A DNA stretch of 64,000 bases from Chitinophagaceae bacterium (GTDB lineage Bacteria > Bacteroidota > Bacteroidia > Chitinophagales > Chitinophagaceae), in the NCBI GenBank assembly GCA_035318985.1, contig DATHDP010000020.1:51-64050 (forward strand). The letters run 5' to 3'. The notes under the pieces are model-generated. The model was not told the origin of the DNA. It made no database searches and worked only from the letters and a program-made list of their open reading frames with translations. Below, piece by piece: positions 8,720 through 42,454 of this stretch. How positions within the stretch are numbered: the first letter of the stretch is position 1; every line of letters begins with the position of its first letter. A program made the position numbers and the translations under genes.

Positions 8720-8747
8720 TGTCTATAAAATTAAATATTTGTTGTGA

Positions 8748-9543: not shown

Positions 9544-9688
9544 TGCTTTCTTAAGTTTTTCAAATGTTTGCCCGGGGGTCTTTTGCAAAATATCCTGGGC
9601 GGCCTTAAATTTTGTAAAAAATTATTTAACCCAATTTTTGGCTTTCTTCTCCGATTTTTTTTGATATATATTTACATTCAAAAAATCC

Positions 9689-11215: not shown

Positions 11216-11363
11216 TAAAGAAGGCATTGATTTGAAAATCCTTTTTCACGCTGTTGTTGAATAGAAATCCAGAACGTACAAGTGAGTGACACAACGAAAG
11301 CTTAATAGTAGCAATCAAGCCTACTCAATAAAATCTCAAATTTTAAATTTAAAATCTGCAATC

Positions 11364-13271: not shown

Positions 13272-13305
13272 GTTGGCAAGGGGTTTTAGCGAAAATAAAG
13301 AATAA

Positions 13306-13465
13306 AACCCAACCCCTGTCCCCTAAAGGGGGACTTAGATTGAATTGTTCTTCGGATCATCAACAGTATCGTTCTCGTATTGTAATAATAGAAACGTTCA
13401 ATCCTCAATGTTCAATTCTAAACTGTTTGAGACTTCAAAAGCCCCCTTTAGGGGGTTGGGGGTTT
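13306..13465. repeat. 160-bp MITE-like unit bounded by imperfect inverted GC-rich hairpin modules
   Basis: The left end is AAACCCAACCCCTGTCCCCTAAAGGGGGACTTAG (13306-13338). The right end is GACTTCAAAAGCCCCCTTTAGGGGGTTGGGGGTTT (13431-13465). The two ends are reverse complements of each other apart from a 5-nt indel. The right end overlaps the GH20 stop codon. Confidence 0.5.
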
Positions 13466-26714: not shown

Positions 26715-27578
26715 TTAAATAGAAAGTGTTTTCATGTAAACAGCATCAGCCTGCGCAGCTTGCATTGGAGTTGTCCCTTCCCACTTTTCTTGCTCGATTA
26801 TATAGTATTCCATTCCATATTTTTTTGCAGTCTTCAGGATCTTTGGATAGTTTATACTTCCGGTACCAACTACAACGCTTTCATCTTTATCAGTTAATGG
26901 TGCTCCTTTTTTACGATCTTTTACATGGCATAAGCGGAAACGCTTCGGGTATTTTTTTAGCCATGTTTCAATATCCTGCCCGGCAGCAACTACCCAGTAC
27001 ATATCCAATTCAAAATCGACAAGACTTGCATCCGTATTTTTCATCATTACATCCTGACCCATTTCACCATTCAGTGTAGCAAATGAATAATCGTGATTAT
27101 GATAGGCAAAACGAATCCCGTTCTTTTTACATATCTCACCTTTCTGGTTGAACTCATCGGCAAATTTTTTAAATGCATCGAGGTCTTTTTGTGGTCCTTT
27201 ATATGGACAGATCAAATATTTCATTCCAATAGCTGCTGCATCAGCTGCTTTCTTTTCAAAATCTTTACTGATATCGCAATGACTGGAAATTATTTTCATC
27301 CCGAGGTTATCCATCTCAGCTTTAAATTCTGTATTGCTCATCCCCCAAAACATTCCTTTGCCACCTTCAAAGCTTTCTATTTGTTTATAACCATACGTTG
27401 ATAATTGCTTTAACACTCCTTTCGGATCTTTTGCAAGATCATCACGAACACTCCATAGTTGTATCCCAAAGTTTTTCAGTTTAGCTGCTTCTCCGGCAAG
27501 CGAAGCAAAACCTGATTTTGATGCAAGCCCTGCCAACGCAAGTCCGCCACTTAATTTCAAAAACTCATTTCTTTTCAT
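26715..27578 (-). CDS. Xylose-isomerase-like TIM-barrel protein (sugar phosphate isomerase/epimerase family), exported
   Basis: It has a TAT-like leader (MKRNEFLKLSGGLALAGLA...). The TIM-barrel pattern includes FAYHNHDYSF and an E-rich metal-site context. Confidence 0.78.
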   Translation of the reverse strand: MKRNEFLKLSGGLALAGLASKSGFASLAGEAAKLKNFGIQLWSVRDDLAKDPKGVLKQLSTYGYKQIESFEGGKGMFWGMSNTEFKAEMDNLGMKIISSHCDISKDFEKKAADAAAIGMKYLICPYKGPQKDLDAFKKFADEFNQKGEICKKNGIRFAYHNHDYSFATLNGEMGQDVMMKNTDASLVDFELDMYWVVAAGQDIETWLKKYPKRFRLCHVKDRKKGAPLTDKDESVVVGTGSINYPKILKTAKKYGMEYYIIEQEKWEGTTPMQAAQADAVYMKTLSI

Positions 27579-27596
27579 ATGTATATTGATTAAATA

Positions 27597-28163
27597 TTAA
27601 ACAAATAATTTATCTCCTTTTTTATAAGGTACAGCTCCATCATATTTACCCGGCACTTGCTGATAGTTGAAGTTTTGCTCCAATCCAGGTTTTGAAGTAA
27701 AGTAACCCATTAAAGTAAGTTGCTTCATCATTAAAAAATAATGATTAGGATCTTCTTTCTTTTTAGTTTTCATGTATTCTTTTGCTTCCTTATCAAGCGA
27801 GGTCAATAATTCTTTACGATGAGCTGGTTCAGCTTTCATAAAACTATGACCGTGCATTTTATTACAAGCCTCGTCCAATTTCTTCATTCCTTCATGAAAT
27901 GTTTTTTGATCGGCTTCTTCATAGCAATCATTTACCATAACAGTCATGAACTTACCAACCTCTGCTTCTTTAGCACCTGCCGTCGTGGTTTTCGGTATGA
28001 TCGTTTCTGCTACTTCGTCAAGAAATGCAATGTTATCTGCTGAAAAAACAGTTCCTGCTACTTCAGCATCTTTGCTTTTACATCCTGCAAGAAAAAATTC
28101 ACCGCCAATTACAACGCCACCTGTAGCGAGTGCGACCATTTTTAAGAGTTCTCTTCTTTCCAT
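27597..28163 (-). CDS. Gluconate 2-dehydrogenase subunit 3-family small subunit (TAT signal plus lipobox)
   Basis: MERRELLKMVALATGGVVIGGEFFLAGC combines a twin-arginine motif with an LAGC lipobox. It is a paralog of 33276-33917. Confidence 0.8.
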   Translation of the reverse strand: MERRELLKMVALATGGVVIGGEFFLAGCKSKDAEVAGTVFSADNIAFLDEVAETIIPKTTTAGAKEAEVGKFMTVMVNDCYEEADQKTFHEGMKKLDEACNKMHGHSFMKAEPAHRKELLTSLDKEAKEYMKTKKKEDPNHYFLMMKQLTLMGYFTSKPGLEQNFNYQQVPGKYDGAVPYKKGDKLFV

Positions 28164-28181
28164 TTGGTTGTATTTAATATA

Positions 28182-29870
28182 TTAAAGATTTTGTTTTTTT
28201 AGTTCATTGACCGCATGATCTGCGGCTCTTGCTGTATATGCCATATAAGTTAGCGACGGATTTACGCAAGAAGCACTCGCCATACAAGCTCCATCTGTTA
28301 CAAACACATTCATTGCATCCCAAACCTGGTTGTGTTTATTCAAGACACTTGTCTTTGGATCTTTTCCCATTCTTGCTGTTCCCATTTCATGAATCCCATG
28401 CCCGATAGCATGCCCGCTATCATAGGTGCTTAGATTCTTAACACCTGCCGCATCTAGCATTTCTTTAAGCTCTTCTTTAATAGCTACCCGCATCTTCATT
28501 TCATTATCTTTTATTTCAGCATCCATTGCGAGAACAGGCAAGCCCCATTTATCTTTTCTATTTTTATCTAAATAAATTTTGTTTTCATGATAGGGAAGAA
28601 TTTCACCAAAACCAGTTGCGCCCATCCGCCATTTTCCCGGCTCGCATAATGCATCTTTAAATTCGCTGCCAACATTTAATTCTGCAATTTCACGTCCCCA
28701 ACCAGTCCTGCTTGCACTGCCCTGGTATCCGAACCCTCTTACAAAATCTCTTTTCTTTGTATCGCCAATAAAATTTGCAAACCGTGGAATATAAAATCCG
28801 CAGGGACGACGACCTTGTTCCTCGATATCAGTAAAGCCCTCTATTTCTCCCGACACACCAAGGTTATAATGATGGTCCATAACATTATGACCTAATTCAC
28901 CGCTGCTGCTTCCTAACCCTTCCGGAAAAACATCAGTAGCCGAATTAAACAATAACCAAGTTGAATTCAATGTGGACGCACAAACAAAAACGATCTTTGA
29001 TTTGAATTCATAAGTTTTGTTATCACTTGCATCAAGCACTTCAACCCCAGTTGCTTTCTTTTTATCCTTATCGTATAAAATTTTTGTAACAATAGATAAA
29101 GGTCTTACTGTAAGATTATTTGTTTTCATTGCAGCAGGAAGGGTAGAAGATTGTGTGCTGAAATATCCACCAAAAGGACAACCTTCCCAGCAACGATTCC
29201 GAAACTGGCAATTCGTTCTTTCGTTAAGCGGTTCTGTAATATTTGCAGTACGACTATGGATCATGTGTCGCTGGCCCTTATAAAAATTCTTTATTTTTTC
29301 AGCAACATCTTTTTCTACCATATTTAATGGTATTGGAGGCATAAATTTTCCATCAGGCAATTGTGGCAAGCCTTCCAATGAACCGCTAATACCTGCAAAT
29401 TTTTCAACATGATCATACCACGGTGCAAGATCATTATAACGAATCGGCCAATCAACACCATGACCATCTTTTGCATTTGCTTCAAAGTCCGTATCGCTCC
29501 AGCGATAACTTTGGCGACCCCATAAAGTAGAACGACCGCCCATTCGATATACACGCCACCAGGTAAAAGGTTTTATTTCTGTATAGGGAGATTCAATTTC
29601 ATTCACCCATGCATCCATTATTCTGTCATATGCAGCCCATCCGCGATGAATCACCGGGTAGTCTTTTTTCTGTTGTGCAGTAGTCGCACCGCGGTGTGTA
29701 AATTCCCACGGATCTTTATTGGCGGTCTTATAATCTTTTATATGCTCGTAAGGACCGCCCCGTTCGAGCATCAGCACTTTCAAACCCTTTTCACAAAGTT
29801 CTTTTGCAGCCCAGCCACCGGAAATTCCAGAGCCTACTACGATTGCATCAAATGTGTTGTTGTCTGCCAT
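28182..29870 (-). CDS. GMC-family FAD-dependent oxidoreductase (paralog D), no signal peptide
   Basis: It has the ADP-binding fold DAIVVGSGISGGWAAKEL and the Cys-rich block CQFRNRCWEGCPFGGYF. The C-terminal GMC block is IHEMGTARMG...NVFVTDGA. Confidence 0.9.
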   Translation of the reverse strand: MADNNTFDAIVVGSGISGGWAAKELCEKGLKVLMLERGGPYEHIKDYKTANKDPWEFTHRGATTAQQKKDYPVIHRGWAAYDRIMDAWVNEIESPYTEIKPFTWWRVYRMGGRSTLWGRQSYRWSDTDFEANAKDGHGVDWPIRYNDLAPWYDHVEKFAGISGSLEGLPQLPDGKFMPPIPLNMVEKDVAEKIKNFYKGQRHMIHSRTANITEPLNERTNCQFRNRCWEGCPFGGYFSTQSSTLPAAMKTNNLTVRPLSIVTKILYDKDKKKATGVEVLDASDNKTYEFKSKIVFVCASTLNSTWLLFNSATDVFPEGLGSSSGELGHNVMDHHYNLGVSGEIEGFTDIEEQGRRPCGFYIPRFANFIGDTKKRDFVRGFGYQGSASRTGWGREIAELNVGSEFKDALCEPGKWRMGATGFGEILPYHENKIYLDKNRKDKWGLPVLAMDAEIKDNEMKMRVAIKEELKEMLDAAGVKNLSTYDSGHAIGHGIHEMGTARMGKDPKTSVLNKHNQVWDAMNVFVTDGACMASASCVNPSLTYMAYTARAADHAVNELKKQNL

Positions 29871-31549
29871 TAAAGATTTCCTTTTTTAAGTTCATTTACC
29901 GCATGGTCAGTTGCCCTTGCCGTCAATGCCATATAGGTGATTGAAGGATTTTGACAAGCTGATGATGTCATGCATGCGCCATCAGTATTAAATACATTTT
30001 TTACTTCGTGCAACTGGTTCCATTTGTTCAGTACAGATGTTTTAGGATCATTTCCCATCCTGGCTGTTCCCATTTCATGAATGCACAATCCGGGATAAGC
30101 TTTTTCATCATTGAATGTATAAATATCTTTTATACCTCCTGACTCAAGCATCTCAGCTGCACTATTCATCATGTCTTTTCGCATAGCAATTTCATTTCCC
30201 TTCCACTCACAATCAATTTCAAGCTGGGGCAATCCCCATTTATCTTTTTCCGTTTTGCTAAGTGTAACCTTGTTATCAGGATGTGGTAATTGTTCACCCC
30301 AGCTTCCTAACCAAAAACTCCAATCACCTGGTTCGGTCGTTTGTTCTTTTAATTCCGATCCAATACCATCACCATTCCAATTCATACCTCTTGATGCACC
30401 ACCCTGGTAACCAAAACCACGGAGATAATCAGAACGTTTTGTCTTTTCATTTATATTTCTGAAACGGGCCACATAAATACCATTGGGCCTGCGCCCCGAA
30501 ATAACCTTGTCTTTTAAGCCATCATAATTTCCTCCTGCGCCTACATGGTAATGATGATCCATAAGGTTTCGTCCTAATTGATCACTTGAATTGCCCATAC
30601 CATTTGGAAAAACATCGGATACAGAATTTAATAAAATACTTGTTGAACCTAATGTAGATGCATTTAAAAAAATAATTTTTGCAAAGTATTCTATTGATTC
30701 ATTTGTATTCTCATCAATGATACGTACTCCTTTGGCTTTCTTCTTTTCCTTATCATACATCACTTCCATTACAATTGAATGAGGACGCAGTGTTAAATTG
30801 CCTGTGCTTGCTGCAACAGGTAATGTAGCGGAATTGCTGCTGAAATACCCGCCAAAGGGACAACCTCTGTCACAAAGATTGCGGTACTGGCAAGGACCGC
30901 GGCCATTCCAACCTTTAGTTAAATTGGCAACTCGCCCAATGATCATTCTTCTGCCATCAGTAAATTTTTGGTTGATGTTTTCAGAAACATGTGTTTCGAG
31001 AGCATTCATTTCCATTGGAGGTAAAAAATCACCGTCTGGTAATTGGGGCAATCCTTCTTTACTGCCACTGATCCCCGCAAACTGTTCTACATAACTATAC
31101 CATGGGGCTATATCTTTATATCGGATCGGCCAATCAACACCATGACCGTCTTTTGCATTCGCTTCAAAATCGAGATCACTCCAGCGATAACATTGTCTTC
31201 CCCACATCAGGCTTCTTCCACCAACATGATAACCTCTTATCCAGTCGTAGGGTTTTTTTTGTACATAAGGATGTTCTTTATCATTTACAAAAAAGTGACT
31301 GTTGGCTTCATTACAAAAACCACGAACCTGTATATGTTGATCTTCTTTAATTTTTTTTGTGTTTTGATTTCGATGTAATAATTCCCAGGGAGCAAGATTG
31401 GTGGTAGGATAATCTTTAATATGTTCAACCTGCCGGCCTCTTTCAAGAACTATTGTTTTTAATCCTTTTTTGCATAATTCCATGGCTGCCCAACCACCAC
31501 TAATACCAGAGCCAACTACTATTGCGTCGTATGTATTAGTGTCAGTCAT
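29870..31549 (-). CDS. GMC-family FAD-dependent oxidoreductase (paralog C), no signal peptide
   Basis: It has DAIVVGSGISGGWAAMEL, CQYRNLCDRGCPFGGYF and IHEMGTARMG. Its TAA stop shares one base with the ATG of paralog D (TAATG). Confidence 0.9.
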   Translation of the reverse strand: MTDTNTYDAIVVGSGISGGWAAMELCKKGLKTIVLERGRQVEHIKDYPTTNLAPWELLHRNQNTKKIKEDQHIQVRGFCNEANSHFFVNDKEHPYVQKKPYDWIRGYHVGGRSLMWGRQCYRWSDLDFEANAKDGHGVDWPIRYKDIAPWYSYVEQFAGISGSKEGLPQLPDGDFLPPMEMNALETHVSENINQKFTDGRRMIIGRVANLTKGWNGRGPCQYRNLCDRGCPFGGYFSSNSATLPVAASTGNLTLRPHSIVMEVMYDKEKKKAKGVRIIDENTNESIEYFAKIIFLNASTLGSTSILLNSVSDVFPNGMGNSSDQLGRNLMDHHYHVGAGGNYDGLKDKVISGRRPNGIYVARFRNINEKTKRSDYLRGFGYQGGASRGMNWNGDGIGSELKEQTTEPGDWSFWLGSWGEQLPHPDNKVTLSKTEKDKWGLPQLEIDCEWKGNEIAMRKDMMNSAAEMLESGGIKDIYTFNDEKAYPGLCIHEMGTARMGNDPKTSVLNKWNQLHEVKNVFNTDGACMTSSACQNPSITYMALTARATDHAVNELKKGNL

Positions 31550-31567
31550 TAAAAATTAATACTTGGT

Positions 31568-33247
31568 TTAAAGATTTCCTTTTTTAAATTCTTCCGCTGC
31601 ATGATTTGCCGCTCTTGCTGTTATTGCCATAAACGTCAATGATGGATTTTGTGTTCCTGTTGATGCCATACAAGCTCCATCCGTTACAAATACGTTCGGA
31701 CAATTATGAAACTGGTTCCATTTATTAAGCATTGATGTCTTTGGATCTTTTCCCATTCTTACTCCACCCATTTCATGAATATCCAAGCCGGGAGCTTGCT
31801 TACTATCCCGTGGATAAATGTTTTTACATCCCGCTTTTGTAAGCATTTCAACTCCCTGATCATGAAAATCCTTTACTAGCAGCTCATCATTTTCATCATA
31901 ATCAACGGAAGTTATCAATTGAGGTATTCCCCAATCATCTTTTTTATCTGTACTCAGGCGAACATGATTTGTTTCTTTTGGGATCGTTTCACCTTGCATC
32001 ATCATATAAATTCCCCATGGACCAGCTTGTGTCATCGAATCTTTTAATTCAGCGCCGATGCCATCATACCCAGATCCCTGGTACCTGTTTGCTGTAAACG
32101 CAACAAGATAGCCACGCTTAAATGGCATTTCCTGTTTGCGTACATTTCTGAATGATGGCATGATGATCATCGTTGGTCTGCGGCCATAGGTTTGAAAATT
32201 TTCAAATCCATCATAAGTGGCACTAATGCTGCCGCGATAATTATGAAAGCAAATAAATTTTCCCAAAAGACCATTATCATTTCCAAGCCCGTTAGGAAAA
32301 CGTTCTGATCTTGAGTTTAATAAAATAAGATTTGTGTTTATGCAAGCAGCATTTACAAAAATTATTCTTGCAGAATATTCAGTTGCTTCTTTTGTTTTTG
32401 CATCGATCACTTTTACACCAGTCGCTTTTTTCTGCTTGTCATCATAAATAATTGAATGAACAACTGAATTTGTTTTCAAAGTAAGATTGCCTGACTTCTG
32501 CGCCCATGGAATAGTTGATGCATTGCTACTGAAATAACCACCAAAAGGACAACCACGTTCGCATAAGCTCCTTGCCTGGCATTGTTGTCTTCCTTGTTGG
32601 ATATGTATATCCTGTGGCTGAGTTAAATGTGCACAACGACCAATGATGGCCGGCCTGTCTGGATAATTTGTTTTTATTTGTTCAACAAGATGTTTCTCCA
32701 CGACATTCATATCCCATGGCGGTAAAAATTCACCATCGGGTAAATTTTCCAATCCATCTTTATTGCCACTGATGCCGGCAAATTTTTCAACATGACTATA
32801 CCATGGCGCCATATCATCATAATTGACTGGCCATGGAGTTGCATAGCCATCTCTTGCAGGCGCATCAAATTCGAATTTGCTCCAGCGTTGTACTTGTCTT
32901 GCCCATAGCAAGGACTTGCCGCCAACCTGGTAAGCCCTGATCCAGTCGAAAGGTTTTTCCTGTATGTATGGATGCTCTTTATCTTTTACAAAGAAATGTT
33001 CAGTGGCTTCACCAAATGCATAACATTTTGCAACGGTGGGGTTTTCTTTTAAAACAGAAGGAGGCATTTCACCACGATGTGCTAATTGCCACGGATCTTT
33101 TGTTGCAGTGGGATAATCTTTGAGATGGACAACATCACGACCACGTTCAAGCAATAAAACTTTTAATCCTTTATCACAAAGTTCTTTTGCGGCCCATCCG
33201 CCGGATATGCCGGAACCAATTACGATCGCATCAAATTGTTCTTCCAT
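31568..33247 (-). CDS. GMC-family FAD-dependent oxidoreductase (paralog B), no signal peptide
   Basis: It has MEEQFDAIVIGSGISGGWAAKEL, CQARSLCERGCPFGGYF and IHEMGGVRMG. The listed start at 33397 overlaps the upstream gene and is rejected in favour of the ATG at 33247. Confidence 0.88.
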   Translation of the reverse strand: MEEQFDAIVIGSGISGGWAAKELCDKGLKVLLLERGRDVVHLKDYPTATKDPWQLAHRGEMPPSVLKENPTVAKCYAFGEATEHFFVKDKEHPYIQEKPFDWIRAYQVGGKSLLWARQVQRWSKFEFDAPARDGYATPWPVNYDDMAPWYSHVEKFAGISGNKDGLENLPDGEFLPPWDMNVVEKHLVEQIKTNYPDRPAIIGRCAHLTQPQDIHIQQGRQQCQARSLCERGCPFGGYFSSNASTIPWAQKSGNLTLKTNSVVHSIIYDDKQKKATGVKVIDAKTKEATEYSARIIFVNAACINTNLILLNSRSERFPNGLGNDNGLLGKFICFHNYRGSISATYDGFENFQTYGRRPTMIIMPSFRNVRKQEMPFKRGYLVAFTANRYQGSGYDGIGAELKDSMTQAGPWGIYMMMQGETIPKETNHVRLSTDKKDDWGIPQLITSVDYDENDELLVKDFHDQGVEMLTKAGCKNIYPRDSKQAPGLDIHEMGGVRMGKDPKTSMLNKWNQFHNCPNVFVTDGACMASTGTQNPSLTFMAITARAANHAAEEFKKGNL

Positions 33248-33275
33248 AAGAAAACCTAACTCCCTAAAGGAGATT

Positions 33276-33917
33276 TTAATTAAGCCCGGTAAAAATTTTA
33301 TCTCCTTTTTTATAATCCAGGTCACCAATATATTTTCCTGGTACGGGTTCGTATCTTGTTGCACCCGTTCTCCCTTCTTTAGAAGTGAAATAACCAAAAA
33401 TGGTTAATTGCTTCATCATGGTGAAGTAATGATCAGGCATTGTTTTCTTTTCAAAATTTGTATCACCATTTGCCTGTGCCTTTTTTTCCAGGTCATCTTG
33501 CTCTTTACTAAATTCTTTTCTTTTTGCCTGGTATTCTTTCACCTCTGGGTCAAGGGAGACCAAAACAGCTTTTTTATTTTCAGGAGTCGCTTTCATAAAA
33601 TCATGTCCATGCATTTTTTTGCATGCTGCATTTATAGCTGCTTGCCCTTCGTGAAATGCTTTCTGATTTTCTTCTGTGTAACAATCATTCACCATTACGG
33701 TCATGAACTGGCCAACTTTTGCTTCTTTAGCGCCAGGTGTTGATGTTTTTGGAAAGATTGTTTCAGCAACTTCATCCAAAAAAGCAATATCTGATTCTCC
33801 AAATTCTTTTCCTGCACCTGCATCAGGATTTTTACAACCAGCAAGAAAAAATTCTCCGCCAATAACAACACCGCCAGTAGCAGCGGCAACCATTTTTAAT
33901 AATTCACGTCTGTCCAT
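33276..33917 (-). CDS. Gluconate 2-dehydrogenase subunit 3-family small subunit (TAT signal plus lipobox)
   Basis: The N-terminus is MDRRELLKMVAAATGGVVIGGEFFLAGC. The core matches 27597-28163 (FLDEVAETI.PKT...GAKEA.VG.FMTVMVNDCY) with an extra K/E-rich insert. Confidence 0.8.
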   Translation of the reverse strand: MDRRELLKMVAAATGGVVIGGEFFLAGCKNPDAGAGKEFGESDIAFLDEVAETIFPKTSTPGAKEAKVGQFMTVMVNDCYTEENQKAFHEGQAAINAACKKMHGHDFMKATPENKKAVLVSLDPEVKEYQAKRKEFSKEQDDLEKKAQANGDTNFEKKTMPDHYFTMMKQLTIFGYFTSKEGRTGATRYEPVPGKYIGDLDYKKGDKIFTGLN

Positions 33918-33940
33918 TATAAAAAATTTAATAAGATTAA

Positions 33941-35632
33941 TTAAACATTCATTTTTTTCAATTCATCAACTGCAAATGCAGCAGCTCTTGCAGTTAATGC
34001 CATATATGTGAGTGACGGATTTACACAAGACGCACTTACCATGCAGGCACCGTCTGTTACGAATACATTTTTACAATCCCAAACCTGGTTATTGCCATTC
34101 AATACTGATGTTTTTGGATCACGACCCATTCTAGCTGCACCCATTTCATGTATACCCATACCAGGAGCATTGTCGTTATCATATTCCTGTACATTTTTTA
34201 CACCGGCTATTTCCAGCATTTCTTTCATGTCAGCCTTCATATCCCCCCGCATCTTTTTTTCATTCTCTTTAAACTCGACATCGAAATTTAGTACCGGAAG
34301 TCCCCATTTATCTTTCATGTTCTTATCCAGTGTGATCTTATTGTCATGATGAGGAAGAGTCTCACCAAATGCCGTTGCGCCGATTCTCCATCCGCCAGGT
34401 TCACTCAACGCATCTTTCAGGTCAGCGCCGACACTTAGTTCTGCAACTTCGCGACCCCAACCATTTCTGCTTGCACCACCCTGGTATCCGAATCCACGTA
34501 AATAATCTCTCTTATCACCGCCAAAATTTCTGAATCGTGGAATATAAAAACCGGTTGGCCGGTTACCGAAATAATATTTGTTCTCATATCCTTCTACTTC
34601 ACCACTTGCTCCCACCCGGAAATGATGATCCATAACATTATGTCCCAATTCGCCACTAGCACTTCCTAATCCATCAGGCCAAATATCAGTGGCTGAGTTC
34701 ATCAATATCCACGCTGAGTTAAGTGCCGAAGCACAGAGGAAAACAATTTTTGAAAAATATTCTTTCACCTGCATTGTTTCCGCATCAATTACTCTTACAC
34801 CTTTCGCTTTTTTAGTTTCCTTATCATAAATAATTTCTTTAACAATGGAATTGATGCCCAATGTAAGTTTGCCGGTTGCCATTGCGGCAGGCAATGTGGA
34901 AGATTGTGTACTGAAATAAGCACCGAAAGGACAACCGTTCCAGCACATATCACGATACTGGCAATTTGTTCTTTGTGGGCTATGACCTAGTGGCCCTGTT
35001 ATATGTGCAGTACGACCAATGATCAGTGTACGTTTATTATTATAATGTGCTTTGATCTTCGCAGCTACATCTTTTTCTACCACGTTTAATTCCATCGCAG
35101 GTAAAAAATGACTATCAGGCAATTGAGGAAGATTTTCATATGAACCCTGTATGCCGGCAAATTTTTCGACATGAGTATACCATGGCTCTAGATCTTTATA
35201 CCTGATAGGCCAATCAACAGCAACACCTTCTTTTCCGTTGGCTTCAAAATCCGTTTCGCTCCAGCGGTAACTCTGGCGTCCCCACATTAATGAACGACCA
35301 CCCACATGATAACCACGGAACCAGTCAAAGCGTTTTGTTTCAGTATAAGGATTGTCTTTATCACTTGCCCAATAATGAAGATTTCTTTCATTCAACGGGT
35401 AGTCTCTTTTAAGATGCGGATAATCTGCGATCATCTGTTGTGTTTTGCCTCCGCGATGCGGATATTCCCACACAGGCCTGTTGCTTTTCTCATAATCTTT
35501 TCCATGTTCTATATTGAAGCCTCTTTCAAGCATGATTGTGTTGAGACCTCGTTCGGTAAGTTCTTTAGCCGCCCAGCCGCCACTAATGCCGGAGCCAACC
35601 ACGATCGCATCAAATGTGTTATTGTCTGCCAT
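33941..35632 (-). CDS. GMC-family FAD-dependent oxidoreductase (paralog A), no signal peptide
   Basis: The N-terminus MADNNTFDAIVVGSGISGGWAAKEL is identical to that of paralog D. It also has CQYRDMCWNGCPFGAYF and IHEMGAARMG. Confidence 0.9.
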   Translation of the reverse strand: MADNNTFDAIVVGSGISGGWAAKELTERGLNTIMLERGFNIEHGKDYEKSNRPVWEYPHRGGKTQQMIADYPHLKRDYPLNERNLHYWASDKDNPYTETKRFDWFRGYHVGGRSLMWGRQSYRWSETDFEANGKEGVAVDWPIRYKDLEPWYTHVEKFAGIQGSYENLPQLPDSHFLPAMELNVVEKDVAAKIKAHYNNKRTLIIGRTAHITGPLGHSPQRTNCQYRDMCWNGCPFGAYFSTQSSTLPAAMATGKLTLGINSIVKEIIYDKETKKAKGVRVIDAETMQVKEYFSKIVFLCASALNSAWILMNSATDIWPDGLGSASGELGHNVMDHHFRVGASGEVEGYENKYYFGNRPTGFYIPRFRNFGGDKRDYLRGFGYQGGASRNGWGREVAELSVGADLKDALSEPGGWRIGATAFGETLPHHDNKITLDKNMKDKWGLPVLNFDVEFKENEKKMRGDMKADMKEMLEIAGVKNVQEYDNDNAPGMGIHEMGAARMGRDPKTSVLNGNNQVWDCKNVFVTDGACMVSASCVNPSLTYMALTARAAAFAVDELKKMNV

Positions 35633-35790
35633 GTTTTACTTGGTATTTAAAATTGAATATTGATTTAGAATACAAATTTTATTATGAGCCTTGCTGCAGT
35701 GCTACTATTAAACTTATGTTGCGTCGCACTATTGTACCGTAACAATTCTATTCAACAATTGAATGATGAACCCCTGGTAACATCTTTAAT

Positions 35791-35825
35791 CTAAGTCACT
35801 CCGCCATAGGCGGAGGACAGGCGTT
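35791..35825. repeat. GC-rich hairpin module CTAAGTCACTCCGCCATAGGCGGAGGACAGGCGTT abutting a stop codon
   Basis: CTCCGCC (35799-35805) pairs with GGCGGAG (35809-35815). The flanks CTAAGTCAC...GACAGG are shared with 22136-22166. It overlaps the TAA of the 35824-36720 gene. Confidence 0.5.
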
Positions 35826-36720
35826 ACACATCGCATCTTCTCACAGCATCTTTCAATGCTGCTATTTTTTCATCATTGGTTTTACCTGTCGGCATGAACT
35901 CCTGCGCCACATAATCTTTAAAACCTGTTTTTACAATCGCATCCATGATCGCAGGATAATACAATTCCTGGCTTTCATTTATTTCATGACGACCCGGTAC
36001 ACCCGCAGTATGATAATGGCCGATATATTGGTAATTGTCAGTAATAGTTCTTATAACATCACCTTCATCGATCTGCATGTGATAAATATCATAAAGCAAT
36101 TTAAAATTGGGTGAACCAATTCTTTTTACCAATTCCACACCCCACGGTGTTCTATCACACATATAATCTTTGTGATTGATCTTACTGTTCAATAATTCCA
36201 TTTGGATCATCACACCATTCTTTTCTGCAAGACCCATTATTTGTTTCAAGCCTTCTGCGCTATTATTCAGACCGGTTTCATCATCCATTCCGTTACGATT
36301 ACCGCTAAAACAGATCAAGTTTTTATAACCGGCTTCTTTTACAAGAGGAATAGTTTCGCTAAAATCTTTGATCAGTTGTGGATGAAAGGTCTTGTTATTC
36401 CAACCTTCGGTAAGACTTACTTTACCTGCGATATAACACATGGAAGAGTAAAGTCCATATTTTTTAAGCATTGGCCAATCTTTTGGAGCTATCAGGTCAA
36501 TAGCGCTAATGCCTATTTTTTTTACTTCAACACAAAGTTCCTCCAATGGAATATGATTATAGGTCCATTGGCAAACAGAGTGATTGATATTGCCTTTCAA
36601 TTTTAATTTTTTTGAATTTATATCTTCGGTAGCAAAGGAACTTATAAAAGGAGCGACTGTGGCTGCCGCAGTTCCTGCTGCAATTTTTTTCAAGACATCA
36701 CGACGGTTTGATTTTTTCAT
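35824..36720 (-). CDS. Xylose-isomerase-like TIM-barrel protein (hydroxypyruvate-isomerase-like), TAT-exported
   Basis: It has a twin-arginine leader (MKKSNRRDVLKKIAAGTAAATVAPF). TIM-barrel blocks include MQMELLN, LLYDIYHMQI and HYHTAGVPGRHE. Confidence 0.8.
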   Translation of the reverse strand: MKKSNRRDVLKKIAAGTAAATVAPFISSFATEDINSKKLKLKGNINHSVCQWTYNHIPLEELCVEVKKIGISAIDLIAPKDWPMLKKYGLYSSMCYIAGKVSLTEGWNNKTFHPQLIKDFSETIPLVKEAGYKNLICFSGNRNGMDDETGLNNSAEGLKQIMGLAEKNGVMIQMELLNSKINHKDYMCDRTPWGVELVKRIGSPNFKLLYDIYHMQIDEGDVIRTITDNYQYIGHYHTAGVPGRHEINESQELYYPAIMDAIVKTGFKDYVAQEFMPTGKTNDEKIAALKDAVRRCDV

Positions 36721-36758: not shown

Positions 36759-37994
36759 TCAAACTTCAGGAGCTGCGATATTTTCTGACACACCGGCAAA
36801 CTGTATTTGTCTTTTTTCTCTAAAAAATAAAATAAAATATAAAAGCACACCTAGTGCGATATAAGCCGGAACAAACCAAATGCTTTTCCAGTCATGACCT
36901 CCGGATGACATTACATATTTATCCACTACTTTACCTGATATCAAAGTACCAATGAACATTCCAACTCCATAAGTAGCGAACGTGAATAATCCCTGGGCAG
37001 CATTCTTAATTTTTTCCCCAGCTTTCTTTTCAGTGTACATGTAGCCGGTTACAAAAAAGAAATCATAACATACACCGTGCAAAATAATACCGGCATAAAG
37101 CATCCACATATTTCCATCCGTATTGCCATATGCAAAGCATACATAACGGAGTATCCACGCAGTCATTCCCATTAGCAACATTTTTTTAACTCCAATGCGA
37201 TTAAACAGGAATGGTATTGCCAGGATAAATATCGCTTCTGAAAATTGCCCCATGGTCATTTTAGCTGCAGCTTTATCAATATTAAGTTCATTTAAAAAGC
37301 CATTTGCAAATCCATAATAAAATGATAGTGGGATGCAAACCAATATGGCGGCAATAAAAAATATCAGGTAGGGTTTGCTTTTAAATAACACAAATGATTC
37401 AGAGCCTAAAGCCTTTGATGCAGAGGAAACTGCTTTTCCTTTTGGCGGTGTATTAGGTAATATAAAACTGAATAACCCCAATGCAGCCGAAACACCAGCA
37501 GCGATAAGGAATGTATAAATGGAAGGTTCTATTTTTAAACTCCCGATTATTAAACCAGCAACGATCCATCCCAATGTTCCAAATACTCTTATCCATGGAA
37601 ATTGTTTTCCCGGATCGGACATTTGATGAAATGCAATGCTGTTCGATAAAGCGATCGTGGGCATATAGAGTAAGGAGTAAAATAATATTATCCAATAGAA
37701 CGCAGAACTATTATCAACTTTTGTTGCTAAGAATAATAATACAGCTCCAATTAAATGAAGCACACCCATGATCCGTTGCGCTGAAAAAAACCTGTCAGCG
37801 ATCATTCCAACGAAAAAAGGTGAGATCATGGTTGCGATCGCTAGTGCAGAATATGCTTGACCTATACTGTTATCAATTCCCGTTTCTTTGAAATGCTCTC
37901 CCATATATGTCACCATAGTTACATACCATGAACCCCAAATAAAGTATTGGAGAAACATCATGATTGAAAGCTGGACTCCTGTTTTAAGGTTCAT
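36759..37994 (-). CDS. MFS transporter of the nucleoside:H+ symporter (NHS) type
   Basis: It has 12 predicted helices. The N-terminus VQLSIMMFLQYFIWGSWYVTM is typical of NupG/XapB-like transporters. Confidence 0.75.
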   Translation of the reverse strand: MNLKTGVQLSIMMFLQYFIWGSWYVTMVTYMGEHFKETGIDNSIGQAYSALAIATMISPFFVGMIADRFFSAQRIMGVLHLIGAVLLFLATKVDNSSAFYWIILFYSLLYMPTIALSNSIAFHQMSDPGKQFPWIRVFGTLGWIVAGLIIGSLKIEPSIYTFLIAAGVSAALGLFSFILPNTPPKGKAVSSASKALGSESFVLFKSKPYLIFFIAAILVCIPLSFYYGFANGFLNELNIDKAAAKMTMGQFSEAIFILAIPFLFNRIGVKKMLLMGMTAWILRYVCFAYGNTDGNMWMLYAGIILHGVCYDFFFVTGYMYTEKKAGEKIKNAAQGLFTFATYGVGMFIGTLISGKVVDKYVMSSGGHDWKSIWFVPAYIALGVLLYFILFFREKRQIQFAGVSENIAAPEV

Positions 37995-38013
37995 GATTTT
38001 TAGAATTCAATAT

Positions 38014-39243
38014 TTATGCGTGAGCTGCTTTCTGTTGCTTGTAAACATTTCGTCTTACTATATATATAACTATGAAAATTACAAGAACTATGGCCGGCAT
38101 AATGGCAACTTTCATAAATGTTTCTGAACCTGCCGCGGCTTCAGCTTGTGCTGTTTGCATTCCTTCTGAAATTGCTTTTGCCTTTGCCTGGTCCAGCCAC
38201 TTTCCCATAACTGGTAAGATCAATGAAACTGAAAACATACCTGCTCCGCCCATTAATGATAAACCTAATGCACCAGTTTTTGGTAAATATTCTGCAACAA
38301 ATCCAAGCATAGTTGGCCAGAAGAAACAGATACCTACTGCATAAACTGCTGCAGCTCCAAATGCTGCATACCCGCTAATCTTACTTAATAATACAAGACC
38401 AATACCAGCAAATATTGCAGAGAATATCAGCATTCCATTTGGATTAAGTCTATGAACAACCGGGCCTGCAAAGGATCGCCCTAATGCCATTATTCCAAAT
38501 ATGAAGACGAGGACCAAAATACCTGAAACATTTGTTCCCTGAAGAAGAGCCAGAATCCAGGTTGTTGTTCCAAGTTCTGTAGCGGCAGTTAAAAACATGC
38601 AGATGATCATTATAAGGAACAAAGGATTTAAACAGGCTTTGAACATATCACCAGTTGAAACGCCACTTGTAACTCTCTCTGTTTCCGGGAATTTCAATTT
38701 TAAAAACATAAAACCATAAATCACAACGGCGATAAATAATGGGATCATTAATAACCGCCAATCAAGATTCAGTTGTGTTAGCACTATATAGGCAAGTAGT
38801 CCACCAATCACATTCCCTCCTGGAAACCACACATGAAATCGATTTAACATGGTTGTTTTATTGTTAGGATATAATGATACAACAAGAGGATTGCAAGCTG
38901 CTTCTACCATTCCATTTCCAATACCAATGCAAAGAGTTCCTATAAATAGCATGGTGGCATCCTTTGCAATGATATAAATTACTGCTCCTGCAATATGCCC
39001 AACAAATGCAAAACCAACCAGGCGTTTCATGCCAAGTACATCACAAAGGGGGCCGCCAATTACCATTGCAAGTGTGAATCCCCAGAATGCGGGACTAAAA
39101 ACCCAGCCTACTTGTTCTTTATTAATATTAAACTCTGATCCCCATACTCCTTCAAGCGATGCCCTGAAGGCAAAAGTGAGAGATGTAAATATCAGTGCGA
39201 TACAACTTGCTAAGAAAAGTTGATTTTTGTTTACGGCTTGCAT
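38014..39243 (-). CDS. MFS sugar-type transporter
   Basis: It has about 12 helices with the MFS pattern. I prefer the ATG at 39243 (MQAVNKNQLFLASCIALIF...) over the listed 39321. Confidence 0.75.
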   Translation of the reverse strand: MQAVNKNQLFLASCIALIFTSLTFAFRASLEGVWGSEFNINKEQVGWVFSPAFWGFTLAMVIGGPLCDVLGMKRLVGFAFVGHIAGAVIYIIAKDATMLFIGTLCIGIGNGMVEAACNPLVVSLYPNNKTTMLNRFHVWFPGGNVIGGLLAYIVLTQLNLDWRLLMIPLFIAVVIYGFMFLKLKFPETERVTSGVSTGDMFKACLNPLFLIMIICMFLTAATELGTTTWILALLQGTNVSGILVLVFIFGIMALGRSFAGPVVHRLNPNGMLIFSAIFAGIGLVLLSKISGYAAFGAAAVYAVGICFFWPTMLGFVAEYLPKTGALGLSLMGGAGMFSVSLILPVMGKWLDQAKAKAISEGMQTAQAEAAAGSETFMKVAIMPAIVLVIFIVIYIVRRNVYKQQKAAHA

Positions 39244-39342
39244 ATCGTTGGTTTTTATGAAAAAAATTTTGGAAAGGCTAAATGTACTATTTTTAAAAAC
39301 ACATTTACCTTCAATGTTCACGAATTTAATTTATATCAAACC

Positions 39343-39361: not shown

Positions 39362-40522
39362 ATGGAAAATAGGAAACTCAGAATGGGAATGATCGGTGGC
39401 GGCAAGGATGCATTCATCGGCGCCATTCATCGTTTTGCATTTAATATGGATGCACAAATTGAAATTGTTGCCGGCGCATTAAGTATTAATCCGGAGATCG
39501 CGGTTGATTCAGGAAAAAGTTTATTTCTTGATGAATCCCGCATTTATACAGATTATAAAGTGATGCTGGAAAAAGAAGCTGCAATGCCAAAAGATAAACG
39601 AATTGATTTTGTCAGCATTGTTACTCCAAACTTCGTGCATTTTGATCCGGCTATGATGGCTCTCGATAAAGGGTTTAATGTAGCAATTGAAAAGCCAATT
39701 ACTTTTTCATTGGAGCAAGCAAAACAATTAAAAGAAAAAGTAGCACAAACGGGATTGACTCTTTTACTTACTCATACCTATACCGGCTATCCAATGATAA
39801 AGCAGGCAAAACAAATGCTGAAGAGTGGATTGCTTGGTAAGATCAGGAAAGTATATGTTGAATATCCGCAAGGATGGTTGAGCACATTGAAAGAGAGTGA
39901 AGGAAATGCGCAAGCTTCATGGAGAACAGATCCAAAGCGTAGTGGCATAGCAGGAGCGATGGGAGATATCGGAACACATGCATTTAATATGGCCGAGTAC
40001 GTAACTGGTTTGCAGGCTACTCATTTATGCGCTAACCTGAATATAGTAGTAGATGGAAGAATGCTTGACGATGACGGCGCAACATTTATGAAATTTAATA
40101 ATGGAGCAACTGGTGTATTAATGGCGACACAAATTGCCGCGGGTGAAGAAAACTGTATTAAGATAAGAGTATATGGAGAGAAAGGAGGTCTTGAATGGAA
40201 ACAGGAAGATGCAAATACTTTATTAGTTAAGTGGCTTGATAAACCTGCAGAGATATATCGTGCGGGTACGGGCTATGTAAGTTCTTATGCATCGCATAAC
40301 TCAAGAACACCTGCTGGTCATCCTGAAGGATATCTTGAAGCATTTGCAAATCTTTACCGAAATTTTTCTTTGACCGTTCGTGCAAAGTCGAATGGAGAAA
40401 AACCAAAAGATGAATGGCTTGATTTTCCAGGTGTTGATGAAGGCATAAGAGGAATGGCATTTATTGAAAATGTGGTTGCTTCGGGTAAGTCAGATGCAAA
40501 ATGGACTGAATTCAAAGTTTGA
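39362..40522 (+). CDS. Gfo/Idh/MocA-family NAD(P)-dependent oxidoreductase, cytoplasmic
   Basis: The N-terminal Rossmann block is LRMGMIGGGKDAFIGAIH, and the EKP motif appears as AIEKPITF. There is no signal peptide. Confidence 0.85.
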   Translation: MENRKLRMGMIGGGKDAFIGAIHRFAFNMDAQIEIVAGALSINPEIAVDSGKSLFLDESRIYTDYKVMLEKEAAMPKDKRIDFVSIVTPNFVHFDPAMMALDKGFNVAIEKPITFSLEQAKQLKEKVAQTGLTLLLTHTYTGYPMIKQAKQMLKSGLLGKIRKVYVEYPQGWLSTLKESEGNAQASWRTDPKRSGIAGAMGDIGTHAFNMAEYVTGLQATHLCANLNIVVDGRMLDDDGATFMKFNNGATGVLMATQIAAGEENCIKIRVYGEKGGLEWKQEDANTLLVKWLDKPAEIYRAGTGYVSSYASHNSRTPAGHPEGYLEAFANLYRNFSLTVRAKSNGEKPKDEWLDFPGVDEGIRGMAFIENVVASGKSDAKWTEFKV

Positions 40523-42085: not shown

Positions 42086-42454
42086 ATGAAAAAAACAGTT
42101 TTTATGATCATGGTAGTTGCTGTACTTACTTCGTGTGGGGGAGGTGGCAAAACCGAAGAGAAACCTAAAGTGGTTGATATTACTGAAGATCCGGTTTACC
42201 AAAAAGGAGTTGAAATTGTTGCAAACAGTGATTGCAAAACTTGTCATATGATCGATGAAAAAAATGTTGGACCTGCATGGAGAGATGTTGCTAATAAATA
42301 TGCCGACTCAGCTAACGCCGTAGCGTATCTTTCTCATAAAATTATAAATGGTGGTTCTGGTGTTTGGGGGCAAGTGCCGATGGCGGCTCATCCGACTATG
42401 TCCCAGGAAGACGCAGAGACCTTGGCTAAATATGTTCTACTATTAAAAAAATAA
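42086..42454 (+). CDS. Mono-haem c-type cytochrome, lipoprotein
   Basis: It has a lipobox (VAVLTSCGGGG), a single CKTCH haem-binding motif, and a distal Met region (GVWGQVPMAAHP). Confidence 0.88.
   Translation: MKKTVFMIMVVAVLTSCGGGGKTEEKPKVVDITEDPVYQKGVEIVANSDCKTCHMIDEKNVGPAWRDVANKYADSANAVAYLSHKIINGGSGVWGQVPMAAHPTMSQEDAETLAKYVLLLKK

What the first reader, a model, noticed from the sequence alone, without database searches (positions are those of the whole stretch)
27597..35632. Four signal-peptide-less GMC catalytic subunits share only two TAT-lipoprotein 'hitch-hiker' subunits; all four carry a C-x5-C-x3-CPFG Cys-rich block
What the sequence shows:
- None of the four GMC proteins has an export signal. 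They start directly at the FAD fold: MADNNTFDAIVVGSG, MTDTNTYDAIVVGSG, MEEQFDAIVIGSG.
- The two ~190-213 aa partners start M(E/D)RRELLKMVA.ATGGVVIGGEFFLAGC, a twin-arginine motif plus a lipobox.
- The gene order on the coding strand is A-small-B-C-D-small.
- A and D are visibly the closest pair, with identical first 25 residues. That suggests a duplicated [GMC + small] module with B and C wedged between.
- The C stop and the D start overlap as TAATG.
- Each GMC protein has three cysteines spaced C-x5-C-x3-C followed by PFG(G/A)YF: CQYRDMCWNGCPFGAYF, CQFRNRCWEGCPFGGYF, CQYRNLCDRGCPFGGYF, CQARSLCERGCPFGGYF.

What established knowledge adds: in the gamma-alpha-beta FAD-glucose dehydrogenase of Burkholderia cepacia and its relatives, the small TAT-bearing subunit carries the catalytic subunit across the membrane. 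A Cys-rich C...C-x3-CPIGA block in the catalytic subunit binds a 3Fe-4S cluster that relays electrons to the cytochrome subunit.

My inference: these are Fe-S-containing dehydrogenases exported by piggy-back. The 4:2 ratio means either promiscuous escorts or that B and C stay cytoplasmic. The electron acceptor would be the small mono-haem cytochrome encoded in the divergent operon, rather than the usual multi-haem beta subunit.
Basis: partly seen in the sequence, partly recalled or inferred. Interest (0 to 1): 0.62.

Follow-up and report, generated by a model that had tools for sequence, protein, structure and literature searches.

The report
Glycoside dehydrogenase array sharing export subunits
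A soil-type Bacteroidota genome carries four related sugar-oxidising flavoenzymes with no export signal but only two small signal-bearing partner proteins; relatives show up to six enzymes per partner, so one partner probably carries several different enzymes out of the cytoplasm in an otherwise known sugar-breakdown pathway.

Summary
Four GMC genes lack any export signal, and two PF13618 small subunits carry a twin-arginine motif plus a lipobox. Gene order is A-S1-B-C-D-S2, with a TAATG overlap between C and D. All four GMCs carry C-x5-C-x3-CPFG.

The cysteine triad aligns residue for residue with the 3Fe-4S region of fructose dehydrogenase, and by offset with Cys212/218/222 of B. cepacia FAD-GDH.

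The neighbours identify the known oxidative 3-keto-glycoside pathway: a beta-eliminase-like TIM barrel, a near-identical 2-hydroxy-3-keto-glucal hydratase, a Gfo reductase, a DUF1080 hydrolase and a one-haem cytochrome c lipoprotein.

The new result is comparative:
- Chitinophagaceae relatives carry arrays of two to six GMC paralogs followed by one small subunit.
- Some GMCs lie more than 1 Mb from any small-subunit gene.
- No sampled genome has such a GMC without a small subunit.
- The GMC next to the small subunit can come from any of three clades.

This favours generic, shared escorts over cytoplasmic orphans, but it is inference. "B and C wedged into a duplicated module" is not supported: S1/S2 are a genus-specific duplication inside an older array.

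Verdict: a known kind of system with an undescribed sharing architecture. Moderate interest.

The parts
33941..35632 (-). GMC A: FAD/3Fe-4S-type catalytic subunit, no signal peptide. Cys block at 34922-34963.
   Evidence: PF00732/PF05199. Full-length match to FDH large subunit 7W2J at 2e-31 and BcGDH 6A2U at 6e-28. Cys224/230/234 align to FDH Cys216/222/226.
33276..33917 (-). Small subunit S1: TAT signal plus lipobox (MDRRELLK...FFLAGC), PF13618.
   Evidence: Belongs to a genus-specific S1 clade that is sister to the S2 clade.
31568..33247 (-). GMC B: catalytic paralog, the most divergent of the four; S1 lies 28 nt upstream. Cys block at 32540-32581.
   Evidence: Falls in the B/F/G clade. Homologues at 69-75% identity occur across Chitinophagales, Sphingobacteriales and Cytophagales, often with no small-subunit gene within 10 kb.
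29870..31549 (-). GMC C: catalytic paralog with no adjacent small subunit. Cys block at 30851-30892. Its stop overlaps the D start (TAATG).
   Evidence: Forms a separate C clade.
28182..29870 (-). GMC D: catalytic paralog directly upstream of S2. Cys block at 29169-29210.
   Evidence: Its clade includes genes from Sediminibacterium and Puia.
27597..28163 (-). Small subunit S2: TAT signal plus lipobox (MERRELLK...FFLAGC), PF13618.
   Evidence: Related to the single terminal small subunit of arrays in other genera at 52-72% identity.
26715..27578 (-). T2: exported xylose-isomerase-like TIM barrel, a candidate 3-keto-glycoside beta-eliminase. Its leader is K-R rather than R-R (MKRNEFLK).
   Evidence: PF01261. 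PDB 8TCD/8TCS at 4e-34 and AtOGE 8BVK at 5e-16. The Sediminibacterium homologue has a clear RR leader.
35824..36720 (-). T1: TAT-signal TIM barrel (hydroxypyruvate isomerase / ketose 3-epimerase-like), first gene of the array operon.
   Evidence: Holds the conserved position T1-G...G-s-T2 in relatives.
36759..39246 (-). Two MFS transporters upstream on the same strand, probably importing the sugar-derived product.
   Evidence: PF03825 and PF07690. Syntenic in relatives.
39362..40522 (+). Gfo/Idh/MocA oxidoreductase, a candidate cytoplasmic 3-keto-sugar reductase.
   Evidence: Analogous to the Gfo enzyme of the A. tumefaciens GlycDH operon (PMC10628242).
40995..42050 (+). T3: cytoplasmic TIM barrel, 2-hydroxy-3-keto-glucal hydratase.
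   Evidence: PDB 8RO4 at 2.4e-175 over the full length.
42086..42454 (+). One-haem c-type cytochrome lipoprotein (LTSC lipobox, single CKTCH), the proposed electron acceptor.
   Evidence: PF00034; leader shown. It is the only real c-type cytochrome within 9 kb of any of the genome's nine GMC genes. Present in every related locus whose flank reaches that far.
42461..43213 (+). DUF1080 lipoprotein: 3-keto-disaccharide hydrolase family.
   Evidence: PF06439 at 6e-50. Family role described in PMC8121099 and PMC9007349.

Best explanation
The locus encodes the oxidising front end of the known periplasmic 3-keto-glycoside pathway, in a multi-paralog form.

1. Four GMC flavoproteins (A-D) each bind FAD, probably non-covalently, and a 3Fe-4S cluster held by the C-x5-C-x3-C triad.
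2. They fold and take up cofactors in the cytoplasm. They have no signal of their own and cross the membrane through the Tat system bound to a PF13618 small subunit.
3. The small subunit is also lipid-modified at its lipobox cysteine, so it tethers the enzyme to a membrane face in the periplasm.
4. The small subunits are generic. S1 and S2 can each serve any of the paralogs, including B and C here and probably the two further orphan GMCs elsewhere in the genome.
5. The paralogs oxidise different glycosides at C3.
6. Electrons pass from FAD to 3Fe-4S, then to the one-haem cytochrome c lipoprotein, then to the respiratory chain.
7. The 3-keto-glycosides are cleaved in the periplasm by the exported TIM-barrel eliminase (T2) or the DUF1080 hydrolase.
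8. The product is imported by the MFS carriers, hydrated by T3 and reduced by the Gfo enzyme.

Shown here: the gene content, the motifs, the alignment of the cysteines with known ligands, the synteny, the copy-number series and the co-occurrence.

Inferred: Fe-S content, export, escort sharing, C3 regiochemistry and the cytochrome partner.
For: Identity of the catalytic subunits:
- Full-length homology to FDH and BcGDH catalytic subunits.
- The triad aligns to FDH Cys216/222/226 and, by offset, to BcGDH Cys212/218/222. The latter are the crystallographic 3Fe-4S ligands (PMC6719666).
- The catalytic His495 and Asn538 are invariant.

Export:
- No room for a signal peptide on A, C or D, and no signal-like stretch on B.
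- TAT plus lipobox on S1/S2 and on 31 of 32 homologues in related loci.
- TatC is present in the genome.

Pathway context:
- T3 matches 8RO4 hydratase at 2e-175.
- T2 matches 8TCD and AtOGE.
- DUF1080, cytochrome c and Gfo are present.
- The pathway is described in PMC10628242, PMC8121099 and PMC9007349.

Escort sharing:
- This genome has 9 triad-bearing GMCs but 5 small subunits.
- The same genus shows 2:2, 3:2 and 4:2 arrays.
- Other Chitinophagaceae show T1-G(2-6)-s-T2 with a single small subunit.
- A chromosome-level Sediminibacterium assembly has 5 GMCs and 2 small subunits, with three GMCs more than 1 Mb from either.
- Co-occurrence in 41 relatives: 26 genomes with both, 15 with neither. 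In 151 class-level genomes: 19 with both, 1 with the small subunit only, 0 with the GMC only.
- The GMC next to the small subunit comes from the A/D, C or B/F clade depending on the array.
Against: - No experiment, and no complex model could be run.
- The small subunit links to the characterised gamma subunits only through Pfam PF13618. It gave no hit to any PDB chain, alone or as a 13-sequence profile. Its AF2 model (pLDDT 80) gave no Foldseek match to the small chains of 6A2U or 7W2J.
- The covalent-FAD histidine of BcGDH/FDH is Met, Leu or Thr here, so these enzymes are not close copies of those models.
- The window's T2 leader has K-R rather than R-R.
- Co-occurrence and synteny are compatible with sharing but do not prove physical pairing.
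- GMC counts in the class-level search are lower bounds, because only 9 candidates per genome were scored.
Confidence: 0.68

Rival explanations
1. Only the GMCs next to a small subunit (A, D, perhaps B) are exported. The orphans, C at least, stay in the cytoplasm and oxidise imported glycosides there, passing electrons to another acceptor.
For: There is no escort gene of their own. Orphans are common: 4 of 9 in this genome, and Sediminibacterium has tandem pairs with no small subunit within 10 kb. Two MFS importers sit in the locus.
Against: - Orphans keep the surface Fe-S triad, whose known role is hand-over to a periplasmic cytochrome (PMC6719666).
- T2 (the candidate eliminase), T1 and the DUF1080 hydrolase all carry export leaders, and the cytochrome c and DUF1080 protein are lipoproteins. 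The only cytoplasmic pathway enzymes act after cleavage.
- No sampled genome has such a GMC without a small subunit.
- C and D are translationally overlapped.
Confidence: 0.14
2. Orphan GMCs are exported indirectly, as hetero-oligomers with an escorted GMC. One small subunit would carry a GMC dimer or larger assembly, rather than binding each paralog itself.
For: Tat exports pre-assembled oligomers. Tight co-translation of the array (gaps of -1 to 28 nt) would favour mixed assemblies. FDH is deposited as a multi-subunit complex (7W2J).
Against: Orphans encoded more than 1 Mb from any other GMC-small pair would need partners from other operons. Nothing tested here points to GMC-GMC contacts.
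Confidence: 0.1
3. Some or all of the four paralogs are not glycoside 3-dehydrogenases. They would oxidise other positions or other polyols (gluconate-2, sorbitol, fructose or glucose-1 type).
For: The nearest solved relatives are FDH and C1-specific FAD-GDH. The paralogs are only 47-66% identical, and regiochemistry cannot be read from sequence.
Against: The array is fixed between exported TIM barrels. It lies opposite a 2-hydroxy-3-keto-glucal hydratase (2e-175), a DUF1080 3-keto-disaccharide hydrolase and a Gfo reductase, and this synteny holds across genera.
Confidence: 0.15

Closest known systems
Glycoside 3-dehydrogenase systems: GlycDH plus 'TAT-pathway signal protein' of Rhizobium sp. 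GIN611 / A. tumefaciens with AtOGE, AtHYD and Gfo (PMC10628242); R. radiobacter G3DH with a mono-haem cytochrome c (PMC9915066); Caulobacter LacABC with DUF1080, and the Pedobacter homologue (PMC9007349, PMC8121099)
   Same: - A signal-less GMC flavoprotein with a small TAT-signal partner.
- Linked TIM-barrel eliminase and hydratase, a Gfo reductase and a DUF1080 hydrolase.
- A one-haem cytochrome c as the likely acceptor.
- Periplasmic oxidation of glycosides.
   Different: - Here there are four catalytic paralogs for two partners (up to six for one in relatives) instead of one to one.
- The partner and the cytochrome are lipoproteins.
- Direct sequence comparison with GlycDH or LacA was not possible with the tools at hand.
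Burkholderia cepacia FAD-glucose dehydrogenase gamma-alpha-beta (PDB 6A2U, 8HDD)
   Same: - GMC fold.
- A C-x5-C-x3-C triad at the position of the 3Fe-4S ligands Cys212/218/222.
- A His/Asn catalytic pair.
- A catalytic subunit with no signal, exported with a TAT small subunit.
   Different: - No covalent-FAD histidine (Met/Leu in its place).
- No fourth cysteine for an inter-subunit disulfide.
- No tri-haem membrane subunit in the operon.
- The small subunit shows no detectable sequence or fold match to gamma.
- The small subunit is a lipoprotein.
- Probable C3 rather than C1 chemistry.
Gluconobacter japonicus fructose dehydrogenase FdhSCL (PDB 7W2J, 8JEJ)
   Same: Best solved match (about 1e-31, full length). 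The cysteine triad aligns to Cys216/222/226. It also has a small subunit.
   Different: FDH has a tri-haem cytochrome subunit in the operon, one catalytic gene per small subunit, and a His at the covalent-FAD position.
Methylacidiphilum acetol dehydrogenase GmcAB with a [Cu-4Fe-4S] cluster (bioRxiv 10.64898/2026.06.11.731722)
   Same: A GMC alpha subunit plus a TAT small beta subunit, with an Fe-S site at the same loop near the subunit interface.
   Different: AceDH has four cysteines (C-x2-C-x2-C-x3-C), whereas the window's four GMCs have three. A different GMC of this genome (contig C57) does have the four-cysteine pattern.

Membership tests
FAD-dependent dehydrogenase complexes with a 3Fe-4S catalytic subunit and a Tat hitch-hiker subunit (BcGDH / FDH type) | GMC N- and C-terminal domains with the catalytic His/Asn pair | tested here: met
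   PF00732 and PF05199 in all four. Full-length alignment to 7W2J and 6A2U. His495 and Asn538 (A numbering) are invariant in A-D.
FAD-dependent dehydrogenase complexes with a 3Fe-4S catalytic subunit and a Tat hitch-hiker subunit (BcGDH / FDH type) | Three cysteines spaced C-x5-C-x3-C at the position of the 3Fe-4S ligands | tested here: met
   A Cys224/230/234 align to FDH Cys216/222/226. The same ungapped offset puts them on BcGDH 212/218/222, which are the ligands in PMC6719666. The triad is present in all nine paralogs.
FAD-dependent dehydrogenase complexes with a 3Fe-4S catalytic subunit and a Tat hitch-hiker subunit (BcGDH / FDH type) | Catalytic subunit without a signal; small subunit with a twin-arginine signal | tested here: met
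   The frames of A, C and D close 1-5 codons upstream of the start, and B's open upstream stretch has no signal-like features. S1 and S2 carry RR motifs, with TIGR01409 at 17.7 bits for S1 (above the 16.7 cut-off) and 16.2 bits for S2 (just below), and both match PF13618.
FAD-dependent dehydrogenase complexes with a 3Fe-4S catalytic subunit and a Tat hitch-hiker subunit (BcGDH / FDH type) | Small subunit homologous to the solved gamma/S subunits | tested here: inconclusive
   The family link is through Pfam PF13618 only. phmmer and a 13-sequence profile found no PDB chain. Foldseek of the AF2 model found nothing below E = 1.
FAD-dependent dehydrogenase complexes with a 3Fe-4S catalytic subunit and a Tat hitch-hiker subunit (BcGDH / FDH type) | Histidine for covalent FAD (His105 in BcGDH) | tested here: not met
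   FDH ...TWHW... aligns to ...SLMW... in A. A-H have Met, Leu or Thr there; only the C57 paralog keeps His.
FAD-dependent dehydrogenase complexes with a 3Fe-4S catalytic subunit and a Tat hitch-hiker subunit (BcGDH / FDH type) | Multi-haem membrane cytochrome c subunit in the operon | tested here: not met
   The only CXXCH protein within 9 kb is the 122-aa one-haem lipoprotein in the divergent operon.
FAD-dependent dehydrogenase complexes with a 3Fe-4S catalytic subunit and a Tat hitch-hiker subunit (BcGDH / FDH type) | Iron-sulfur content and Tat-dependent co-export | not testable with these tools
   Needs EPR or metal analysis, and fractionation in tat and small-subunit mutants.
Glycoside 3-dehydrogenase / 3-keto-glycoside pathway (GlycDH, G3DH, LacABC) | Linkage to 3-keto-glycoside processing enzymes (eliminase, hydratase, Gfo reductase, DUF1080 hydrolase) | tested here: met
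   T2 matches 8TCD at 4e-34 and AtOGE 8BVK at 5e-16. T3 matches 8RO4 at 2e-175. Gfo and PF06439 are present. The synteny is conserved.
Glycoside 3-dehydrogenase / 3-keto-glycoside pathway (GlycDH, G3DH, LacABC) | Small one-haem cytochrome c as electron acceptor | tested here: inconclusive
   The gene is present and syntenic, and there is precedent in PMC9915066. The electron transfer itself was not tested.
Glycoside 3-dehydrogenase / 3-keto-glycoside pathway (GlycDH, G3DH, LacABC) | C3-regioselective oxidation of glycosides | not testable with these tools
   Needs enzyme assays with product analysis.
Glycoside 3-dehydrogenase / 3-keto-glycoside pathway (GlycDH, G3DH, LacABC) | Sequence orthology to characterised GlycDH / LacA | not tested
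PF13618 does ring in the Caulobacter control genome, which may be LacABC's small subunit, but the gene behind that hit was not identified.

The most novel reading that the evidence does not exclude
The PF13618 lipoprotein of Chitinophagaceae and related Bacteroidota is a generic Tat export adaptor and membrane anchor. One such protein would recognise a conserved surface on a whole family of FAD/3Fe-4S dehydrogenases. It would carry up to six different paralogs of one operon across the membrane, and also paralogs encoded megabases away. All of them would then be tethered beside a single shared one-haem cytochrome c lipoprotein. Tat hitch-hiking would in that case not be limited to fixed one-to-one pairs; it could work as a one-to-many hub that lets catalytic paralogs multiply freely.
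Probability: 0.5. Interest if true: 0.62.

Novelty: new variant of a known kind. Interest (0 to 1): 0.45.

Why it matters
The pathway itself (oxidise a glycoside at C3, then cleave it) is already described. So are the Fe-S flavoprotein and its Tat partner.

What is not described, as far as the searchable literature showed, is that catalytic subunits commonly outnumber escorts. The ratio is 4:2 here, up to 6:1 in relatives, and some catalytic genes lie far from any escort gene.

If one escort serves many cargoes, three things follow:
- Tat hitch-hiking can be a shared service rather than a dedicated pairing.
- Glycoside-oxidising paralogs can expand cheaply in soil and freshwater Bacteroidota.
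- Anyone expressing these dehydrogenases for biosensors or keto-sugar synthesis should co-express the array's small subunit even when no such gene sits next to the enzyme.

Tried and rejected
1. Direct homology of the small subunit to solved gamma/S subunits. phmmer with S2, a 13-sequence profile and Foldseek of an AF2 model found nothing. The link rests on Pfam PF13618 only.

2. Recent gene conversion as the cause of the identical first 25 residues of A and D. Rejected, because third-position identity there is 60%, close to the values seen along the rest of the gene (28-68%).

3. A single [GMC + small] module duplication. Rejected on the two trees.

4. A hidden signal peptide on B through the upstream TTG start. 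Rejected, because that stretch has no RR motif and no hydrophobic core and overlaps S1.

5. Further cytochromes next to the other GMC loci. None found.

7. Literature searches.
- A search for 'gluconate 2-dehydrogenase subunit 3' together with 'GMC family oxidoreductase' returned nothing.
- A search on GMC, twin-arginine, small subunit, Bacteroidetes and 3-ketoglycoside listed no title on shared escorts or tandem GMC arrays.
- A search for the 8RO4 paper gave only unrelated hydratases.
- The Caulobacter LacABC paper (PMC2863468) is not held.

Full report
**Observation**

The minus strand of window 26715-36720 carries a tight operon:
- T1 (TIM barrel with a TAT leader) 36720-35824
- GMC A 35632-33941
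- small subunit S1 33917-33276
- GMC B 33247-31568
- GMC C 31549-29870
- GMC D 29870-28182
- small subunit S2 28163-27597
- T2 (exported TIM barrel) 27578-26715

Gaps between genes are 18-28 nt, and C and D overlap as TAATG.

The reading frames of A, C and D close 1-5 codons upstream of their ATG. B's open upstream stretch has no twin arginine and no hydrophobic core. None of the four can therefore carry a signal peptide.

S1 and S2 begin M(D/E)RRELLKMVA..GGVVIGGEFFLAGC, a twin-arginine motif followed by a lipobox. They match TIGR01409 and PF13618 at 1e-34 and 6e-39.

A and D share their first 25 residues and are 66% identical overall. S1 and S2 are 67% identical, and the other GMC pairs are 47-57% identical. 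Third-codon identity over those 25 codons is only 60%, so the match reflects constraint on the FAD-binding fold rather than recent conversion.

Each GMC carries C-x5-C-x3-CPFG.

**The cysteine block**

All four proteins are full-length homologues of the fructose dehydrogenase large subunit (7W2J, about 1e-31) and of the B. cepacia FAD-glucose dehydrogenase alpha subunit (6A2U, 6e-28).

In a local alignment, A Cys224/230/234 fall on FDH Cys216/222/226. The same ungapped offset (query 16 = chain 209) places them on BcGDH 212/218/222. The crystal structure paper names exactly those three residues as the 3Fe-4S ligands. The neighbouring Cys213 makes a disulfide to the gamma subunit (PMC6719666), and the window's proteins lack that fourth cysteine.

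The catalytic His and Asn are conserved.

One difference from GDH/FDH is clear. The histidine that binds FAD covalently (TWHW in FDH) is Met or Leu in A-D, so FAD is probably non-covalent.

**Context**

The divergent plus-strand operon encodes:
- a Gfo/Idh/MocA oxidoreductase;
- an inserted PD-(D/E)XK gene;
- a TIM barrel, T3;
- a 122-aa c-type cytochrome with one CKTCH and an LTSC lipobox;
- a DUF1080 (PF06439, 3-keto-disaccharide hydrolase) lipoprotein.

T3 matches PDB 8RO4, '2-hydroxy-3-keto-glucal hydratase', at 2.4e-175 over its full length. T2 matches 8TCD/8TCS at 4e-34 and the A. tumefaciens O-glycoside beta-eliminase AtOGE (8BVK) at 5e-16.

This is the enzyme set of the oxidative glycoside-cleavage pathway worked out for GlycDH (with its 'TAT-pathway signal protein'), AtOGE, AtHYD and a Gfo reductase (PMC10628242). 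It also matches the LacABC/DUF1080 route of Caulobacter and Pedobacter (PMC9007349, PMC8121099).

The known acceptor of R. radiobacter glucoside 3-dehydrogenase is a mono-haem cytochrome c (PMC9915066).

TatC is present in the genome.

**The 4:2 ratio**

The whole genome is a Chitinophagaceae MAG. It holds nine GMCs of this subfamily, all with the triad, but only five PF13618 genes. B, C and two GMCs on other contigs have no adjacent partner.

Across relatives:
- The same genus shows 2:2, 3:2 and 4:2 arrays, and another genus shows 4:1.
- Around homologues of B in 80 public loci, the conserved frame is T1-GMC(n)-small-T2 with n = 2 to 6 and a single small subunit. L025 and L071 are 6:1, and five loci are 5:1.
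- All array members of about full length (560-640 aa) carry the triad.
- Sediminibacterium has GMC-GMC pairs with no small-subunit gene within 10 kb.
- A chromosome-level Sediminibacterium assembly has five GMCs and two small subunits, with three GMCs more than 1 Mb from either.

Presence and absence are tightly linked:
- Among 41 relatives, 26 genomes have both and 15 have neither.
- In 151 class-level genomes, 19 have both, one has a weak small subunit only, and none has the GMC alone. GMC counts there are lower bounds, because only nine candidates per genome were scored.

A tree of 138 GMCs resolves three large clades: A/D, C and B/F/G. The GMC that sits next to the small subunit belongs to a different clade in different arrays.

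All 31 small subunits recovered with a start carry RR, and nearly all carry a lipobox.

Together these data argue that the small subunit is not tied to one catalytic lineage and is required wherever the enzymes occur. That is the 'promiscuous escort' option.

The cytoplasmic-orphan option is weakened because T1, T2 and the DUF1080 hydrolase all carry export leaders, and the cytochrome c is a lipoprotein. The only cytoplasmic pathway enzymes act after cleavage.

**History of the array**

The small-subunit tree places the S1 clade and the S2 clade as sisters inside this genus. The single small subunits of all other arrays fall outside them.

By contrast, D's GMC clade includes genes from Sediminibacterium and Puia. 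A groups with a separate set, and first-position GMCs of other arrays fall in a third subclade of the A/D clade.

The array of catalytic paralogs is therefore old, and this genus added a second small-subunit gene. The picture of B and C being wedged into a duplicated module is not supported.

**Limits**

- Nothing here shows iron, export or physical pairing.
- The small subunit could not be tied to the solved gamma/S chains by sequence or fold.
- Regiochemistry is inferred from neighbours.

**Verdict**

The locus is a member of a known system: Tat hitch-hiker, Fe-S flavoprotein, glycoside 3-dehydrogenase. Its organisation, with many catalytic paralogs per lipoprotein escort, is widespread in Chitinophagaceae and apparently undescribed. 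It is of moderate interest and would be straightforward to test.

Noticed in passing
outside the window: own genome contig C57:15627-17384 (GMC) and C57:14798-15472 (small subunit): A fifth type of GMC in this genome has four cysteines (CFFCGQCNRNC, i.e. C-x2-C-x2-C-x3-C) and keeps the covalent-FAD histidine (GGRTNHW). The spacing is that of the [Cu-4Fe-4S] site just reported for Methylacidiphilum acetol dehydrogenase (CDQCGFCFQGC). A Pontibacter homologue (L043:1260-3056) has the same pattern.
   Followed up: partly
window 40559-40957 (+): A PD-(D/E)XK (PF13366, GxxExxY-type) gene sits between the Gfo reductase and the hydratase gene, inside an otherwise metabolic operon. It looks like an inserted mobile unit.
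   Followed up: no
L051:about 7500-15700, compared with window 27597-35632: A near-identical strain (B, C, D and S2 at 96-99% identity) has a first GMC only 72% identical to A. Its first small subunit is about 70% identical to S2. The head module of the array has been swapped or is evolving much faster than the rest.
   Followed up: partly
window 27500-27578 (T2 leader): The T2 leader reads MKRNEFLK (K-R), whereas its Sediminibacterium homologue reads MNNRRTFLK (R-R). Either this is a tolerated KR Tat variant or this copy has moved to Sec export.
   Followed up: no
alignment A2, C-terminal region; loci L007, L022-L026, L044, L049, L069-L080: Single small subunits of other arrays end ...GKYEGC(I/V)(P/D)YKKGDKAWAT with a conserved cysteine. 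S1 and S2 of the window lack it (D and A instead). BcGDH gamma uses a C-terminal cysteine for a disulfide to alpha, but the GMCs here lack the matching cysteine.
   Followed up: no
same-genus genomes G005 and G006 (for example G006:C2:1086916-1088429, G005:C11:315076-316740): Several array GMC copies contain multiple in-frame stops. Both genomes have few contigs and low completeness, so these may be long-read errors rather than true pseudogenes.
   Followed up: no
window 40995-42050 (+): T3 is extremely close (2.4e-175, 350 of 351 residues aligned) to the solved 2-hydroxy-3-keto-glucal hydratase 8RO4. The source organism of that entry was not established here.
   Followed up: no
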